In this document: piece after piece, positions 56,877 to 64,000 of the stretch
Layout: each line of letters opens with the position of its first letter
Numbering within the stretch: the first letter of the stretch is position 1
Assembly: GCF_055900595.2 (NCBI RefSeq)
Contig: NZ_CM148325.1
Direction: 5' to 3' (one strand)
DNA length: 64,000 nt
Translations under genes and position numbers: made by a program
The notes under the pieces: generated by a model
What the model saw: the letters and a program-made list of their open reading frames with translations, nothing else
Databases searched by the model: none
What the model was told of the DNA's origin: nothing

Positions 56877-59800
56877 ATGAAATTCACTGAAGATACTCGG
56901 GTAAAAATCCCCGTAATCCTCCACCTGATACGGTTGGGATACTACTACCTGTCCCTTAAAGAACAACGCTGGGACAAAGAAACCAACATCTTCCCTGACC
57001 TCTTTACTGCTGCGATTGGCCGAATAAACCCCGGACTTGCGCCAGACGACATCGGACGCCTGTTAAAAGACCTCACGCTGCTTCTCGACAACGATGATCT
57101 GGGCCGCGCCTTCTTCGAAAAACTCAGTGATCGTTCCGGTATCAAACTGATCGACTTTGATAACTTCAACAACAACAGTTTCCATGTCGTCACCGAATTG
57201 ACCTGCGAAAACGATGATGAAGAATTCCGCCCGGACATCACGCTGCTGATCAACGGCATGCCGCTAATCTTTATCGAAGTGAAAAAACCCAATAATCGGG
57301 AAGGCATCGTCGCAGAACGCAATCGCATCAACGAACGCTTTAAAAACCCCAAATTCAAACGCTTCGCCAACATCACCCAGTTCATGATCTTCTCCAATAA
57401 CATGGAGTATGACGACAGCGACCCGGAGCCGATTCAAGGGGCATTCTACGCCAGCAGCTCTTACAGCAACCCGGTATTCAACTACTTCCGCGAAGAAGAA
57501 CTCTTCAACCTGACCAACTTACTGAAACCGCTGTCAGACGAAACCGAGATCGCCGTCCTGAAAGACAACAACCTGGAAGTCATCCGTACCAACCCGGAAT
57601 TCCAGACCAACAAAGATCACAACTGCCCGACTAACCGCCTTTGCACCGCGCTGTTGAGCCGGGATCGGCTGGCATTTATTCTGCGCTATGCGCTGGTGTA
57701 TGTCGCCGAACCGGGCGGAATCCAGAAACACATCATGCGCTACCCGCAGCTCTTCGCCACTAAAGCAATCGAGCGCAAACTGAACGCTGGTGTGAAGAAA
57801 GGCATCATCTGGCACACCCAGGGCAGCGGGAAAACCGCGCTGGCTTACTACAACGTGCGCTTCCTGACAGATTACTTCCAGAATCAGCAGGTGATCCCCA
57901 AATTCTACTTTATTGTTGACCGTCTGGATCTGCTCCAGCAGGCGCAGCGCGAGTTCACCGCCCGTGGCTTAATCGTTCACCTTATCGACTCCCGCGAAGC
58001 CTTCACTCGCGATATCAAAGCGACGCAGGCGCTGCACAACCACCACGGCAAAGCGGAAATCACCGTCGTCAACATCCAGAAATTCCGCGATGACCCGGAC
58101 GTCGTCACTACCAAAGACTACGATATCAACATCCAGCGCGTGTACTTCCTCGATGAAGTCCACCGCAGCTACAACCCCAAAGGAAGTTTCCTGGCGAACT
58201 TAAGCCAGTCGGACACCAACGCCATCAAAATTGGCCTGACCGGTACGCCTCTGCTGGGCACAGACTACAACTCCCGCGACCTCTTCGGCGACTACATCCA
58301 CAAATACTACTACAACGCCTCCATTGCCGACGGCTACACGCTGCGCCTGATCCGCGAAGAGATCGCCACCAACTACCGAATGATCCTGCAACAGGCGCTA
58401 AAAGAGGTGGAAGTCAGAATGGGCGATGTGGATCGCAAAGACATCTACGCCCATCCCAGCTTCGTCAAGCCGATGTTGAACTACATCATCACCGACTTTG
58501 CCAAAAGCCGGGGCGCGCTGAATGATGACACCATCGGTGGCATGGTGATTTGTGACAGCTCTGAACAGGCCAAACAGATGTTTGAGATATTCAACACTGA
58601 CTACGCCGAATCGCCCACCACCGTTTACCACATCCACACCAAAGAAACGCGGAAAATCAAACGCGCCGCCCTGATCCTACACGACGTCGGCAGCAAGCAG
58701 GAACGCAAAGAGTGGGTGGAGCAATTCAAAGCGGGAGAGATTGACCTGCTGTTCGTCTACAACATGTTGCTCACTGGCTTTGACGCCAAACGGCTAAAAA
58801 AACTCTACCTCGGGCGGGTGATCAGAAAGCACAACCTGCTCCAGGCGCTGACCCGCGTCAACCGAACCTACAACCACTTCCGCTACGGCTATGTGGTGGA
58901 CTTCGCCGACATCCGCCAGGAATTTGACGCCACCAACAAAGCCTACTTCGAAGAGCTACAGGCTGAACTGGGCGATGAAATGGAGCATTACTCCCGCCTG
59001 TTCAAATCAGCGGATGAGATCCGCGAAGAAATCGAACATATCAAAGACGTTCTGTTTAGCTTTGATACCGAAAACGCGGAAATCTTCACTGACCAGATAA
59101 ACCAGATCCAGGACCGGGAAACCGCGCTGGTACTGAAGAACGCGCTGACCGACGCCCGCAGCCTTTACAACCTGATTCGCCTCCAGGGCAACACAGAGTT
59201 TCTCCAGGCGCTGGATTTCAACAAACTCAACATCCTCTACCGCGAAGCCAGCCGCCGCCTCGACTTACTCAACCTGAAAGCGGATCTGGTACAGGGCGTT
59301 GACCTCTCCGGCCTGCTGAACCGGGCGCTGGAAGAGGTGATCTTTGAATTCCATAAAGTGGGCGAAGAAGAGCTGGTACTGGCCGACGAGCTGAAAGAGA
59401 CGCTGCGCCGCACCCGCGAAGCGCTGGCCGCCAACTTCGACCAGCAGGACCCGCAGTTCGTCAGCCTGAAAGACGAACTGGAGCGTCTGTTTAAGAAAAA
59501 GAAACTCAGCGAAGTCACCCAGCAAGAAATGGTTGCGAATATCGGCACACTCAATAAAATTCATGGCCGCATCAAAGAGCTAAACCGCCAAAACAACCTG
59601 CTGCGCCAGAAATACCGGGGCGACGTGAAATACGCGCGTACCCACAAACGCCTGCGTGAGCGCGGCGGCCTGAGCGAGCCGGAGCGTAAAATCTTCGAAG
59701 CACTGCTTAGCGTTAAGCTGGATGCAGATGAAAAAGTGCTGAACAACAGCCAGATACTGAACAATGAAAGCTATTTTGAGCGGCATATGGAGTCATGTGT

Positions 59801-59921
59801 CATCACGCACTTTGAGGATGAGCACCATATCACTCTGACCTCCAGTGCGGTAAGCGACATCAACCGCCTGATTGTGGCGGAATACCTGAACGAATTTAAT
59901 ACCGGAGCACGAACGTGGTAG
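56877..59921 (+). CDS. hsdR: Type I restriction enzyme R subunit
   Basis: 1014 aa; N-terminal nuclease region (IEVKKPN), SF2 helicase motifs (TQGSGKT, DEVHRS). Confidence 0.9.
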   Translation: MKFTEDTRVKIPVILHLIRLGYYYLSLKEQRWDKETNIFPDLFTAAIGRINPGLAPDDIGRLLKDLTLLLDNDDLGRAFFEKLSDRSGIKLIDFDNFNNNSFHVVTELTCENDDEEFRPDITLLINGMPLIFIEVKKPNNREGIVAERNRINERFKNPKFKRFANITQFMIFSNNMEYDDSDPEPIQGAFYASSSYSNPVFNYFREEELFNLTNLLKPLSDETEIAVLKDNNLEVIRTNPEFQTNKDHNCPTNRLCTALLSRDRLAFILRYALVYVAEPGGIQKHIMRYPQLFATKAIERKLNAGVKKGIIWHTQGSGKTALAYYNVRFLTDYFQNQQVIPKFYFIVDRLDLLQQAQREFTARGLIVHLIDSREAFTRDIKATQALHNHHGKAEITVVNIQKFRDDPDVVTTKDYDINIQRVYFLDEVHRSYNPKGSFLANLSQSDTNAIKIGLTGTPLLGTDYNSRDLFGDYIHKYYYNASIADGYTLRLIREEIATNYRMILQQALKEVEVRMGDVDRKDIYAHPSFVKPMLNYIITDFAKSRGALNDDTIGGMVICDSSEQAKQMFEIFNTDYAESPTTVYHIHTKETRKIKRAALILHDVGSKQERKEWVEQFKAGEIDLLFVYNMLLTGFDAKRLKKLYLGRVIRKHNLLQALTRVNRTYNHFRYGYVVDFADIRQEFDATNKAYFEELQAELGDEMEHYSRLFKSADEIREEIEHIKDVLFSFDTENAEIFTDQINQIQDRETALVLKNALTDARSLYNLIRLQGNTEFLQALDFNKLNILYREASRRLDLLNLKADLVQGVDLSGLLNRALEEVIFEFHKVGEEELVLADELKETLRRTREALAANFDQQDPQFVSLKDELERLFKKKKLSEVTQQEMVANIGTLNKIHGRIKELNRQNNLLRQKYRGDVKYARTHKRLRERGGLSEPERKIFEALLSVKLDADEKVLNNSQILNNESYFERHMESCVITHFEDEHHITLTSSAVSDINRLIVAEYLNEFNTGARTW

Positions 59922-63293: not shown

Positions 63294-63835
63294 CGTATAG
63301 TTCTATATTGATAGGTTTCAGCTATTGCTGTGCGTCGTTATAATCATTTTTCTGACGCCATTGATAAGATTTAACATGTTGTGCTGGATGCAATATTACA
63401 TCATAGTTGAGTTCCCTTATTTCCTGTGGGCAGTGATGGGATGTCCCGCAAGCCTTCATCGCAACGGTCATTTTGGCTGTTATACCAGCCAGTTAAGCAG
63501 TTGGTTGTGAGAAAGTTTGATCTTTCCCGCGTGATTGCCACGAGCATTGATACTGAAAAGATAAAAGTTCGTTTTAGCCTGAGCGATGTCGGTAATTTTC
63601 TGTTCAGTCATGGCCTTTCTCTTACTTTTGTGGTTAAAATTTATTCGCTATGGCGCAATTGAAAGCGGTCGTGAAGGTGGGGGAAGACTATCTCATCACT
63701 TACCATATTTCCGACATATTCTCACAACAAAATACCACGTAACTATTGATGAATATTGTTCTCTCCTGAGCAGCGTTTATGCTTTAATTGCTAAATCGAT
63801 TTAATTAGTTTAGCAATTAGTATATTGGAGCCTTT

Positions 63836-64000
63836 ATGAGCACAAGAGTATGGGTACTTGGTGATGCGGTTGTTGATTTATTACCCGAAAGCCAGGGGAG
63901 ACTACTACAGTGTCCTGGCGGGGCGCCTGCTAATGTTGCAGTCGGTATCGCAAGGCTGGGGGGGAAAAGTGCCTTTATTGGCAAAGTTGGCGATGATCCT
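63836..64000 (+). CDS. cscK: Fructokinase (sucrose utilisation csc locus), 5' part; continues beyond window end
   Basis: MSTRVWVLGDAVVDLLPESQGRLLQCPGGAPANVAVGIARLGGKSAFIGKVGDDP, pfkB-family kinase N-terminus; RBS GGAG 6 bp upstream. Confidence 0.85.
   Translation, partial: MSTRVWVLGDAVVDLLPESQGRLLQCPGGAPANVAVGIARLGGKSAFIGKVGDDP

What the first reader, a model, noticed from the sequence alone, without database searches (positions are those of the whole stretch)
56877..64000. Type I R-M system hsdRMS followed by IS66-family fragment and the csc sucrose locus
The three hsd genes are translationally coupled in R-M-S order, and the S subunit target-recognition regions set the specificity. An IS66-family transposase fragment and cscK lie just beyond, so the defence island borders a sucrose-utilisation island. 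Upstream of cscK is an inverted repeat GCTAAA-N13-TTTAGC that could be an operator.
Basis: partly seen in the sequence, partly recalled or inferred. Interest (0 to 1): 0.3.

Follow-up and report, generated by a model that had tools for sequence, protein, structure and literature searches.

The report
Type I restriction system beside scr sucrose genes
An intact, already-described type I restriction-modification operon in an E. coli pheU genomic island is joined, through dead insertion-sequence scraps, to the PTS-type scr sucrose regulon rather than csc; this is ordinary and known.

Summary

- **hsd genes.** hsdR (56877-59921), hsdM (59915-61549, GTG start) and hsdS (61542-62774) are intact, overlap by 7 and 8 nt, and carry all catalytic motifs.
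- **Family.** They belong to the Enterobacteriaceae family that includes EcoMIII of ST131. This hsdS allele very likely equals the GI-pheU system RM.EcoST101XII, whose published motif is GCA(N5)GTTC.
- **IS scars.** An IS66 right-end remnant is present (62928-~63112). An IS110-family transposase pseudogene follows it (63132-63611, non-coding end to ~63722). A different IS66-family remnant lies upstream of hsdR.
- **The kinase gene.** The gene starting at 63836 is scrK, not cscK. scrY, scrA, scrB and scrR follow just outside the window.
- **The inverted repeat.** It is real and extends to 11-bp arms. The operator proper is the 14-bp LacI-type palindrome CTAAATCGATTTAA (63791-63804). This is the ScrR motif: it is unique in the window, occurs twice in the scrY promoter, and is conserved upstream of scrK in about 40 species. 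The distal TTTAGC is also conserved, and its role is unknown.
- **Island structure.** Everything lies in one mosaic pheU island, not two abutting islands.

Nothing here is new.

The parts
56441..56605 (-). Remnant of an IS66-family transposase C-terminus. It comes from a different element than the one downstream of hsdS.
   Evidence: tblastn gives 35-40% aa identity to residues ~471-529 of intact IS66/ISEc23 TnpC. RefSeq annotates a frameshifted partial IS66 transposase at 56462-56630.
56877..59921 (+). hsdR, type I restriction subunit (1014 aa), intact.
   Evidence: Pfam HSDR_N, SWI2_SNF2, ResIII, T1R_D3. Motifs found: D..EVK nuclease, GSGKT, DEVH, TGTP, QALTRVNR. 96.8% aa identity to the ST131 GI-thrW HsdR. 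PADLOC REase_I.
59915..61549 (+). hsdM, N6-adenine methyltransferase subunit (544 aa). The GTG start overlaps the hsdR stop by 7 nt.
   Evidence: Pfam N6_Mtase. Motifs DPSAGSG and NPPF. An in-frame TAA at 59897 leaves GTG 59915 as the first possible start, with GGAG 7 nt upstream. PADLOC MTase_I PDLC03033 matches full length at 1005 bits.
61542..62774 (+). hsdS, specificity subunit (410 aa). Layout: TRD1 ~1-155, central conserved region ~156-227, TRD2 ~228-385, C-terminal conserved region ~386-410. The ATG overlaps the hsdM stop by 8 nt.
   Evidence: Pfam Methylase_S x2. Only the central and C-terminal regions are shared with the EcoMIII-type S. 82% identity across both TRDs to Dickeya HsdS.
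62792..62821 (+). Strong hairpin 17 nt after the hsdS stop, without a U-tract. Probably the operon's 3' end, acting as a terminator or stabiliser.
   Evidence: Inverted repeat I1. MFE -18.3 kcal/mol, z = -5.5. It lies within 62710-62837, which is conserved with the ST131 thrW hsd locus.
62928..63116 (-). IS66 right-end remnant: the terminal inverted repeat plus the last ~50 codons of tnpC.
   Evidence: GTAAGCGGCTCGCCAGAACCGTATTGATATTTACTGAG at 62928 is identical to the end of an intact IS66 copy 10 kb downstream. 73% aa identity to TnpC residues 472-523. PF13817 hit. Homology with a strain carrying a longer IS66 fragment ends at 63112.
63132..63722 (-). IS110-family transposase pseudogene. It holds the N-terminal ~161 codons, frameshifted, at 63132-63611, plus its upstream non-coding end.
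   Evidence: 85% nt identity to an 'IS110 family transposase' gene on Shigella/E. coli/E. albertii plasmids. tblastn gives four HSPs in different frames. The Shigella homologue hits PF01548 DEDD_Tnp_IS110. Homology to the common E. coli scr locus begins at ~63723.
63780..63788 (+). TGCTTTAAT, a conserved element just upstream of the operator. It is a candidate extended -10 of the scrK promoter (inferred).
   Evidence: TGCTT(T/A)AAT is conserved at the same position in most enterobacterial scrK upstream regions. No transcription start data are available.
63791..63804 (+). ScrR-type operator CTAAATCGATTTAA, a LacI-family 14-bp palindrome, 45 nt upstream of the scrK ATG.
   Evidence: The motif CTAAANCGNTTTAR is unique in the 64-kb window, against 0.00 expected. 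The same motif forms the two scrY operators (PMC11251922). It is conserved at -41 to -51 of scrK in about 40 species.
63809..63819 (+). It is conserved; its function is unknown.
   Evidence: It is the right arm of the 11-bp IR. TTTAGC recurs 4-6 nt after the operator in 29 of 36 distinct enterobacterial scrK leaders.
63836..64000 (+). 5' end of scrK (PfkB fructokinase, 306 aa in full). It is the first gene of scrK-scrYABR and runs off the window.
   Evidence: Synteny in identical genomes. Pfam PfkB for ScrK, with LamB, PTS EIIB/EIIC, GH32 and LacI for the next four genes. 98.7% aa identity to ST131 ScrK against 63.7% to CscK of E. coli W.

Best explanation
The stretch is a junction of three unrelated modules inside one mosaic pheU-tRNA genomic island of E. 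coli.

**Module 1: the hsd cassette (56848-62837).**
- It is a compact, intact type I restriction-modification cassette, hsdR-hsdM-hsdS, with overlapping stop and start codons and a terminal hairpin.
- By the textbook type I mechanism, M2S1 methylates adenines in a bipartite site read by the two HsdS TRDs. R2M2S1 translocates and cuts unmodified DNA.
- The cassette belongs to the enterobacterial family whose ST131 member is EcoMIII.
- This hsdS allele is most likely that of RM.EcoST101XII, with published motif 5'-GC(m6A)N5GTTC-3'.

**Module 2: dead insertion sequences (62928-63722).**
- The right end of an IS66 is abutted to the 5' part of a frameshifted IS110-family transposase gene.
- These scars mark where the modules were joined. 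They have no function.

**Module 3: the start of the scr regulon (from ~63723).**
- The regulon is scrK, then scrYABR just outside the window, and it encodes PTS-dependent sucrose use.
- The LacI-family repressor ScrR binds the 14-bp palindrome CTAAATCGATTTAA at 63791-63804. This site lies just downstream of a likely extended -10 (TGCTTTAAT), so it overlaps the start of scrK transcription.
- ScrR is released by fructose or fructose-1-phosphate.

**What is shown and what is inferred.**
- Shown: gene integrity, homologies, module boundaries, and motif uniqueness and conservation.
- Inferred: translational coupling, the recognition sequence, the promoter and transcription start position, and repression at this particular operator.
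For: **hsd**
- ORFs, overlaps and motifs.
- 100% identity in six complete genomes.
- R is 96.8% and M is 95.6% identical to the ST131 GI-thrW system, while the TRDs differ.
- That ST131 system is the GI-thrW-encoded hsdR-hsdM-hsdS operon EcoMIII. Knockout showed it methylates RTACN4GTG (PMC4659465).
- The family is present in 606 of 5426 E. coli genomes. In 43 of them at least 80% of the hsdM+hsdS query is covered, which I read as carrying this hsdS allele.

**Recognition sequence**
- The window HsdS is 82.2% identical to D. oryzae HsdS and 334/410 (81.46%) identical to a frameshift-repaired D. solani HsdS.
- Preprint 10.1101/2020.06.07.138552 reports a GI-pheU type I system in E. coli whose S is 81.22% (= 333/410) identical to S.Dso4321II. 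It assigns both the motif GCAN5GTTC.
- The window lies in a pheU island.

**IS scars**.

**scr**
- Synteny and domains.
- Homology to the common E. coli scr locus starts at 63723.
- The true cscK is only 67% identical in nucleotides and 63.7% in amino acids.
- csc operators are GTTAACGTTAAC, a different motif.

**Operator**
- Unique in the window.
- Three sites in the scr locus and none elsewhere in 32 kb.
- Conserved position upstream of scrK in about 40 species with scrK-scrY synteny.
- The scrY operators and the fructose/F1P induction are cited from Cowan 1991 and Jahreis & Lengeler 1993 via PMC11251922.
Against: - There is no methylome or restriction assay for this strain. The recognition sequence rests on a numerical match to a preprint's identity figure and a shared island type. 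The S.EcoST101XII sequence itself was not available.
- Only 29 nt upstream of hsdR are shared with the ST131 locus, and the promoter scan found nothing convincing. How the operon is transcribed here is unknown.
- A relative carries an internal stop in hsdM, so decay does occur in this family.
- The primary paper describing a scrK operator (Jahreis & Lengeler 1993) could not be read. Binding of ScrR at this site is inferred from motif identity and conservation.
- The right half-site is imperfect (TTTAA rather than TTTAG) here and in most species.
Confidence: 0.88

Rival explanations
1. The kinase gene is cscK and the neighbouring locus is the non-PTS csc regulon (cscB permease, cscA invertase, cscR). 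GCTAAA-N13-TTTAGC would then be a CscR operator.
For: - The 54 codons inside the window are 87% identical to CscK of E. coli W.
- PGAP itself labels the orthologue 'cscK: fructokinase' in some genomes.
Against: - The downstream genes are a LamB-type porin, a PTS EIIBC, a GH32 hydrolase and a LacI repressor, in scrKYABR order.
- The genuine csc locus of E. coli W has a different gene order, an MFS permease, and sits at dsdA/argW.
- Full-length identity to CscK is 63.7%, against 98.7% to ST131 ScrK.
- The csc operators are GTTAACGTTAAC, a motif absent here. The scr motif is present here.
Confidence: 0.02
2. The extended 11-bp inverted repeat (63785-63795 / 63809-63819) is itself the functional unit. 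One option is an RNA hairpin in the scrK leader that affects mRNA stability or translation. Another is a composite DNA site in which the distal TTTAGC is an auxiliary ScrR half-site about one helical turn from the imperfect proximal one.
For: - Arms of 11 bp were reached in 2 of 300 shuffles.
- The RNA fold is -13.9 kcal/mol, z = -2.3.
- The distal TTTAGC is conserved in 29 of 36 distinct enterobacterial scrK leaders.
- The pair just outside the 6-bp core switches from T-A in the window to A-T in Enterobacter and K. pneumoniae.
- A second TTTAGCA also follows scrY operator O2 in the E. coli/Enterobacter/Citrobacter clade.
Against: - If TGCTTTAAT is the -10, transcription starts inside the left arm and the hairpin cannot form in RNA (inference).
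- Several taxa have mismatches at the supposedly covarying position (Raoultella, K. oxytoca, E. mori).
- The element is absent in Kosakonia sacchari-type, Morganella, Aeromonas and Pasteurella loci, which keep the 14-bp operator.
- The hairpin does not sequester the Shine-Dalgarno.
- There is no Rfam match.
Confidence: 0.25
3. The hsd operon is a silent or decaying passenger. It looks intact but is not expressed or not active as a restriction system in this context, having lost its native promoter when placed next to an IS66 remnant.
For: - Only 29 nt upstream of hsdR are conserved with the ST131 locus.
- No good sigma-70 match lies upstream.
- Relatives show an hsdM internal stop, an IS3 insertion and a frameshifted hsdS in D. 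solani.
- The preprint notes a strain with S and M but no detectable methylation.
Against: - All three ORFs and all catalytic motifs are intact.
- The 8 kb is identical across six genomes and at least 99.9% identical in about 20.
- The identical HsdS and HsdM proteins are recorded on 1000 or more contigs.
- The presumed same allele methylates GCAN5GTTC in ST101 strains.
- Low transcription still gave over 99% methylation for EcoMIII.
Confidence: 0.15

Closest known systems
RM.EcoST101XII, the GI-pheU type I R-M of E. coli ST101 strains MS6201/MS6203 (motif GC(m6A)N5GTTC), and its relative RM.Dso4321II of Dickeya solani (preprint 10.1101/2020.06.07.138552)
   Same: - Both are type I systems on a pheU-integrated island with IS elements nearby.
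- The HsdS is 410 aa and about 81-82% identical to Dickeya solani HsdS: 334/410 here against 333/410 reported.
- Both TRDs are about 80-84% conserved with the D. oryzae orthologue.
   Different: - The S.EcoST101XII sequence could not be compared directly, so identity is inferred.
- The rest of the pheU island may differ. The preprint does not mention T6SS or scr.
EcoMIII of E. coli ST131 EC958 (GI-thrW; RTACN4GTG; PMC4659465)
   Same: - Same operon order, hsdR-hsdM-hsdS, with overlapping genes.
- HsdR is 96.8% and HsdM 95.6% identical.
- The HsdS central and C-terminal conserved regions are the same.
- The 3' hairpin region is conserved.
   Different: - Both TRDs are unrelated, so the recognition sequence differs.
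- The tRNA island differs (thrW against pheU).
- The upstream sequence differs beyond 29 nt.
scr regulon of pUR400 / Klebsiella pneumoniae and the common E. coli B2 scr locus (Cowan 1991; Jahreis & Lengeler 1993; PMC11251922)
   Same: - Same scrK + scrYABR organisation.
- 98.3% nt identity to the ST131-type E. coli scr locus from 63723 onward.
- Same 14-bp ScrR operators flanking the scrY promoter and one upstream of scrK.
   Different: - Here the locus sits in a pheU island behind IS66/IS110 scars. In ST131 it lies between ygcE and queE.
- The window contains only the first 55 codons of scrK.
csc regulon of E. coli W / EC3132 (cscB, cscK, cscA, cscR at argW/dsdA)
   Same: - Both contain a PfkB fructokinase whose N-terminus is 87% identical over 54 residues.
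- Both have a LacI-family repressor and serve sucrose catabolism.
   Different: - csc has no porin and no PTS EIIBC.
- It has a different gene order and chromosomal site.
- Its operators are GTTAACGTTAAC.
- The full-length kinase is only 63.7% identical.
Classical type I families IA (EcoKI), IB (EcoAI), IC (EcoR124I), ID (StySBLI), IE (KpnBI)
   Same: Same three-subunit architecture, the same R nuclease/helicase motifs, the same M motifs I and IV, and an S subunit with two TRDs and two conserved regions.
   Different: - Sequence similarity to EcoKI M (E 1e-7), the EcoAI-type R model (35 bits against a cut-off of 550) and EcoR124 R/M (E 1e-26 / 1e-32; roughly a quarter to a third identical by eye, not computed) is far below within-family levels.
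- The ID-type system of EC958 (EcoMII, R 92% identical to StySBLI, order M-S-R) is a separate system from EcoMIII.
- KpnBI HsdM is much larger (own recollection of Chin et al. 2004; not tested).

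Membership tests
Type I restriction-modification system | Three genes encoding R (PD-(D/E)xK nuclease + SF2 motor), M (gamma-class N6-adenine MTase) and S (two TRDs + conserved regions) | tested here: met
   Pfam, NCBIfam and PADLOC domain hits. Motifs D..EVK, GSGKT, DEVH, TGTP, QxxTRxxR in R and DPSAGSG, NPPF in M. S layout by comparison with an allelic S.
Type I restriction-modification system | Bipartite asymmetric recognition site with m6A on both strands, and ATP-dependent cleavage away from the site | not testable with these tools
   Inferred only, from published methylomes of relatives: EcoMIII RTACN4GTG in PMC4659465, and RM.EcoST101XII GCAN5GTTC in preprint 10.1101/2020.06.07.138552.
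EcoMIII / EcoST101XII family of enterobacterial type I systems | HsdR and HsdM near-identical (>80-95%) across members, with shared HsdS conserved regions, variable TRDs and R-M-S order | tested here: met
   R 96.8% and M 95.6% against the ST131 thrW locus, with S shared only in the central and C-terminal regions. R 83% and M 85% against D. solani. Same gene order and overlaps.
RM.EcoST101XII (specific allele, GCAN5GTTC) | HsdS identical or >99% identical to S.EcoST101XII | tested here: inconclusive
Indirect evidence: 334/410 identity to D. solani S against the published 333/410, both on GI-pheU.
Classical families IA / IB / IC | High sequence identity of HsdM/HsdR to EcoKI, EcoAI or EcoR124I | tested here: not met
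   EcoKI M E = 1.6e-7. EcoR124 M gives 116 bits with low identity. EcoAI-family R model gives 35 bits against a cut-off of 550.
Classical families ID / IE | High identity to StySBLI or KpnBI subunits | not tested
   No reference sequences were available. Indirect for ID: EC958 carries a StySBLI-like system (EcoMII, order M-S-R) distinct from EcoMIII. For IE: only my recollection that KpnBI hsdM is 2631 bp.
scr regulon (PTS-dependent sucrose utilisation) | Gene set and order scrK, scrY (porin), scrA (EIIBC-Scr), scrB (sucrose-6-P hydrolase), scrR (LacI family) | tested here: met
   Annotation and Pfam of the genes following the window in 100%-identical genomes. 98.3% nt identity to the E. coli scr locus shown experimentally to confer sucrose growth (PMC11251922).
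scr regulon (PTS-dependent sucrose utilisation) | ScrR operators: 14-bp palindromes flanking the scrY promoter | tested here: met
   CTAAATCGGTTTAG and CTAAACCGGTTTAG lie 59 bp apart upstream of scrY. They are conserved with 58-60 bp spacing in 19 loci. The description matches PMC11251922.
csc regulon | cscB permease, cscA invertase and cscR adjacent to the kinase; GTTAACGTTAAC operators | tested here: not met
   None of these flank the gene. The csc operator motif is seen only in E. coli W.
LacI-family operator (ScrR site upstream of scrK) | 14-20 bp palindrome with a central CG, matching the regulator's other sites, at a conserved position in orthologous promoters | tested here: met
   Site at 63791-63804. 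Unique in 64 kb. Matches the scrY sites. Conserved at -41 to -51 in about 40 species.
LacI-family operator (ScrR site upstream of scrK) | Physical binding by ScrR and inducer-dependent release | not testable with these tools
   Reported for the scrY operators by Jahreis & Lengeler 1993, as cited in PMC11251922.
IS66 family insertion sequence | Terminal IR starting GTAAGCG; tnpA-tnpB-tnpC; complete element | tested here: not met
   Only the right IR and the last ~50 codons of tnpC remain, about 185 bp in all. This is a remnant, not an element.
IS110 family insertion sequence | Intact DEDD transposase (~330-400 aa) | tested here: not met
   Only about 161 N-terminal codons remain, in four frames. 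The homologue carries PF01548. No bridge-RNA or other Rfam hit.

The most novel reading that the evidence does not exclude
The conserved distal TTTAGC lies about one helical turn downstream of the imperfect right half of the scrK operator. It forms a 6-11 bp inverted repeat with the operator's left half. It could be an undescribed regulatory feature of enterobacterial scr promoters. One possibility is an auxiliary ScrR half-site that offers an alternative binding register. The other is a leader hairpin. A similar extra TTTAGCA follows scrY O2 in the E. coli/Enterobacter clade.
Probability: 0.2. Interest if true: 0.25.

Novelty: already known. Interest (0 to 1): 0.12.

Why it matters
It matters little beyond correct annotation.

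- **Naming.** Calling the gene cscK would mis-assign the strain's sucrose pathway: a proton symporter with slow growth instead of a PTS with a porin and fast growth. PGAP makes the same naming slip in some genomes.
- **Practical use.** The hsd system is one more allele of a common, already characterised family. Its likely site, GCAN5GTTC, is useful to anyone transforming or phage-typing strains that carry this pheU island.
- **Island assembly.** The IS66/IS110 scars show how defence and metabolic modules are shuffled between tRNA islands (pheU, a second context next to nanXY, thrW) as separable cassettes.

Tried and rejected
1. **hsdRMS inserted into a single IS66, with the two flanking fragments as its halves.** Rejected. 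Both fragments are C-terminal ends of TnpC in the same orientation, and they are only 35-40% identical to each other's reference.
2. **Structured RNA in the spacers (IS110 bridge RNA, riboswitch).** One E. coli record annotates a 'riboswitch' under a homologous stretch. An Rfam E-value scan of 55400-64000 found nothing.
3. **Specificity from solved structures.**
   - TRD2 is roughly 60% identical (judged by eye from the alignment, not computed) to TRD2 of the Thermoanaerobacter tengcongensis HsdS (3okg/5ybb).
   - TRD1 matches EcoKI TRD1 only weakly.
   - Neither gives a usable recognition sequence.
4. **Classification into families IA-IE.** Only IA, IB and IC could be excluded by sequence. 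The literature search for KpnBI was unproductive.
5. **Consensus promoter scan upstream of hsdR and scrK.** No hits above the shuffle expectation. The scrK promoter proposal therefore rests on cross-species conservation only.
6. **Counting GCAN5GTTC sites in the window.** There are 4 on the + strand and 0 on the - strand, against about 3.9 expected per strand. This is uninformative.
7. **Covariation test for the leader hairpin.** Results were mixed: one compensatory switch, but several mismatching taxa. This is not enough to call a structure.

Full report
**1. Is the observation there?**

Yes for the hsd genes.
- The ORF listing gives three long + strand ORFs at 56877-59921 (1014 aa), 59915-61549 (544 aa, GTG start) and 61542-62774 (410 aa).
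- Pfam assigns HSDR_N, SWI2_SNF2/ResIII and T1R_D3 to the first, N6_Mtase to the second, and two Methylase_S stretches to the third. NCBIfam and PADLOC agree.
- The R/M junction reads ...ACGTGGTAG. GTG at 59915 overlaps the TAG stop by 7 nt. GGAG lies 7 nt upstream, and an in-frame TAA at 59897 excludes an earlier start.
- The M/S junction reads ATGAGTAA, an 8-nt overlap.
- All catalytic motifs are intact: D..EVK, GSGKT, DEVH, TGTP and QALTRVNR in R; DPSAGSG and NPPF in M.
It is not met: the 8-kb stretch is 100% identical in six independent complete E. coli genomes and at least 99.9% identical in about twenty.

**2. Where the window comes from.**

It is E. coli. All of it lies inside one large island integrated at tRNA-Phe (pheU) next to dsbD/cutA. 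The island contains, in order:
- a CP4-like remnant;
- a Sci-1/Tle1 type VI secretion cluster;
- several nuclease genes;
- a PAPS-reductase/IbrB pair and PerC;
- the hsd operon;
- scrKYABR;
- several intact IS66, IS100 and IS2 copies;
- a phosphoethanolamine transferase;
- the integrase.

So 'defence island borders sucrose island' is better put as two cassettes inside one mosaic island.

**3. The hsd system.**

Solved-structure searches find only distant relatives. EcoR124I R and M score E ~1e-26 and 1e-32 with low identity, and EcoKI M scores E ~1e-7. The EcoAI-type R model scores 35 bits against a cut-off of 550. The system is therefore not type IA, IB or IC in the classical sense.

It is nevertheless common.
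- The identical HsdM and HsdS are on record on 1000 or more contigs each (the tool's counting cap). Variants 96% identical occur in Klebsiella, Citrobacter and Raoultella.
- In complete E. coli genomes the family is present in 606 of 5426. Most copies are about 95% identical in hsdR/hsdM and match hsdS only in its central conserved segment. In 43 genomes at least 80% of the hsdM+hsdS query is covered, which I take to mean this hsdS allele.
- The majority form sits in the thrW island of ST131.
- Forde et al. (PMC4659465) describe the GI-thrW-encoded hsdR-hsdM-hsdS operon EcoMIII. Knockout plus SMRT sequencing showed that it methylates RTACN4GTG.

Protein comparison with that locus gives R 96.8%, M 95.6% and S 40%.
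- The S similarity is confined to residues ~156-227 and ~386-410.
- This is the classic allelic pattern: conserved regions kept, both TRDs replaced.

At the DNA level the shared cassette runs 56848-61545, 62039-62222 and 62710-62837.
- It starts only 29 nt before the hsdR ATG.
- It ends just after a strong hairpin at 62792-62821 (-18.3 kcal/mol, z = -5.5).
- The hairpin has no U-tract. It is probably the operon's 3' end.

**4. Likely recognition sequence.**

- A search with HsdS finds full-length relatives at 82% identity in Dickeya oryzae and, annotated as a 341-aa fragment, in Dickeya solani.
- The D. solani locus has the same R-M-S organisation (R 83%, M 85% identical), but its hsdS is frameshifted. 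After repair of the frameshift it is 334/410 = 81.46% identical to the window's HsdS.
- The D. oryzae orthologue is 79% identical in TRD1 and 84% in TRD2.
- A preprint on ST101 methylomes (10.1101/2020.06.07.138552) describes RM.EcoST101XII. This is a type I system on a pheU-integrated island surrounded by IS elements. Its S subunit is 81.22% identical (that is, 333/410) to S.Dso4321II of D. solani. The preprint assigns it the same motif, 5'-GC(m6A)N5GTTC-3'.
- The same island type, the same protein length implied by the percentage, and a one-residue difference in identity count make it very likely that the window carries this allele. I could not align the two sequences directly.

**5. Between hsdS and the kinase gene.**

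- At 62928 the + strand reads GTAAGCGGCTCGCCAGAACCGTATTGATATTTACTGAG. This is identical to the terminus of an intact IS66 copy 10 kb further on.
- The - strand then encodes the last ~50 residues of TnpC, 73% identical to residues 472-523, with a PF13817 hit.
- In strain OkiPb01677 a longer piece of the same tnpC follows hsdS, and there is no scr locus. Homology to the window ends at 63112.

From about 63107 to 63703 the sequence is instead 85% identical to an 'IS110 family transposase' gene found on Shigella, E. coli and E. albertii plasmids.
- On the - strand it encodes the N-terminal ~161 codons (63611 down to 63132), split over four frames.
- The intact Shigella homologue carries the DEDD_Tnp_IS110 domain.
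- No Rfam family, bridge RNA included, matches.

A second IS66-family scrap lies upstream of hsdR (56441-56605, - strand).
- It too is a C-terminal piece, and it is only 35-40% identical to the others.
- The hsd cassette is therefore not an insertion into one IS66.

The modules occur separately elsewhere.
- 113 genomes cover at least 80% of the query spanning the IS110 remnant, scrK and the scrY start. 25 cover at least 80% of the 8-kb stretch that joins hsd to scrK.
- In strain HN68 the IS66'-IS110'-scr block follows unrelated genes.
- In ECOCN22 the whole hsd-scr block sits next to nanXY.
- In ST131 scr lies between ygcE and queE without any IS scars.

**6. scr, not csc.**

- In genomes identical to the window, the gene starting at 63836 encodes a 306-aa PfkB kinase.
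- It is followed by a LamB-type porin, a PTS EIIBC, a GH32 sucrose-6-phosphate hydrolase and a LacI-family regulator, i.e. scrK-scrYABR.
- From 63723 onward the sequence is 98.3% identical to the common E. coli scr locus. Cloning has shown that locus to confer sucrose growth (PMC11251922).
- The genuine csc locus of E. coli W (cscR, cscA, cscK, MFS permease, beside dsdA) matches only at 67% nt identity over ~480 bp.
- At protein level ScrK is 63.7% identical to CscK, 67.8% to the K. pneumoniae scr kinase and 98.7% to ST131 ScrK.

**7. The inverted repeat.**

- GCTAAA (63790-95) and TTTAGC (63809-14) are present and extend to perfect 11-bp arms. Only 2 of 300 shuffles of the intergenic region reach 11 bp.
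- The biologically meaningful unit is different. The 14-bp palindrome CTAAATCGATTTAA (63791-63804), centred on CG, has the form of a LacI-family operator.
- The pattern CTAAANCGNTTTAR occurs once in the 64-kb window, against 0.00 expected. In the 32-kb locus it occurs only upstream of scrK and twice upstream of scrY.
- The scrY sites, CTAAATCGGTTTAG and CTAAACCGGTTTAG, lie 59 bp apart and flank a TTGCTT/TATTAT promoter. They correspond to the two 14-bp ScrR operators of Cowan et al. 1991 and Jahreis & Lengeler 1993, as summarised in PMC11251922. They are conserved with 58-60 bp spacing in 19 loci.
- A genome-collection scan with ScrK returned 80 loci. In about 40 Enterobacterales species with scrK-scrY synteny, and also in Pasteurella and Aeromonas, the same palindrome sits 41-63 nt upstream of scrK.
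- The csc operators (GTTAACGTTAAC) are unrelated. The motif inside the window therefore independently argues for scr.
- Immediately upstream, TGCTT(T/A)AAT is conserved. I read this as an extended -10, which would place the transcription start inside the operator, as at scrY O2. This is inference.

**8. What remains unexplained.**

- The position just outside the 6-bp core changes from T-A (window) to A-T (Enterobacter, K. pneumoniae), with mismatches in other taxa.
- A similar extra TTTAGCA follows scrY O2 in the E. coli/Enterobacter/Citrobacter clade only.
- As RNA the region folds to -13.9 kcal/mol (z = -2.3) without touching the Shine-Dalgarno. If transcription starts where I infer, the left arm is not transcribed.
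- An auxiliary half-site or a leader hairpin are both possible. I give this about 0.2-0.25.

**9. Verdict.**

- Every component is already described: the EcoMIII/EcoST101XII family, the scr regulon and its ScrR operators, and IS66/IS110 debris in tRNA islands.
- Interest is low.

Noticed in passing
About 161 N-terminal codons are spread over four frames, plus about 110 bp of upstream non-coding end. It is 85% nt identical to a truncated 'IS110 family transposase' on Shigella pINV-type and E. coli plasmids. One E. coli record annotates a 'riboswitch' under a homologous stretch, but Rfam finds nothing here.
   Followed up: partly
window 55955-56630: A patchwork of mobile-element debris upstream of hsdR. 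55955-56119 is 98.8% identical to the sequence just upstream of tnpA of an IS66-like element in strain HN68. 56108-56351 is about 77% identical to the sequence found just downstream of scrR in strains ECOCN22 and HN68. 56441-56605 is a divergent IS66-family TnpC C-terminus. Similar sequence on both sides of the hsd-scr block hints at how the block was inserted or recombined.
   Followed up: partly
window 62792-62821: A strong hairpin (-18.3 kcal/mol, z = -5.5) without a U-tract, 17 nt after hsdS. The surrounding region is conserved (77.5% nt identity) with the ST131 thrW hsd locus, so it is part of the hsd cassette.
   Followed up: yes
window ~44650-51610 (RefSeq annotation of identical genome, L001 655-7610): A GIY-YIG nuclease, a 3'-5' exonuclease and an ATP-dependent nuclease sit among pseudogenised T6SS genes (ImpA-N and VasL fragments). 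The DNA is AT-rich, with GC 0.29-0.36 around 50000-51700. This looks like candidate defence genes inserted into the end of the T6SS cluster.
   Followed up: no
window ~52586-54790 (L001 8587-10790): A PAPS-reductase-like gene overlaps an IbrB-like (ParB-related) gene, followed by a PerC-family regulator. This is an ibrAB-like pair immediately upstream of the hsd region.
   Followed up: no
other genomes: H7, H8, H11, H12, H15; L004 12962-14596; L091 5795-7026: Decay variants of the same hsd family. Five listed E. coli genomes carry an ~1.76-kb IS3-family insertion between or within hsdM and hsdS. Strain OkiPb01677 has an internal stop in hsdM. D. solani CP051460.1 has a frameshifted hsdS.
   Followed up: partly
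L089 12576-13592 (ST131 strain 4224): scrR is annotated as a pseudogene (internal stop) in this ST131 genome, which would make its scr genes constitutive.
   Followed up: no
L001 20881-20900 and window 63809-63826: The 10-mer TTTAGCAATT, followed two bases later by a TATA(A/T)T hexamer, occurs both after the scrK operator and after scrY operator O2 in this E. coli locus. This suggests a shared but undescribed element downstream of the start-site-overlapping operators.
   Followed up: partly
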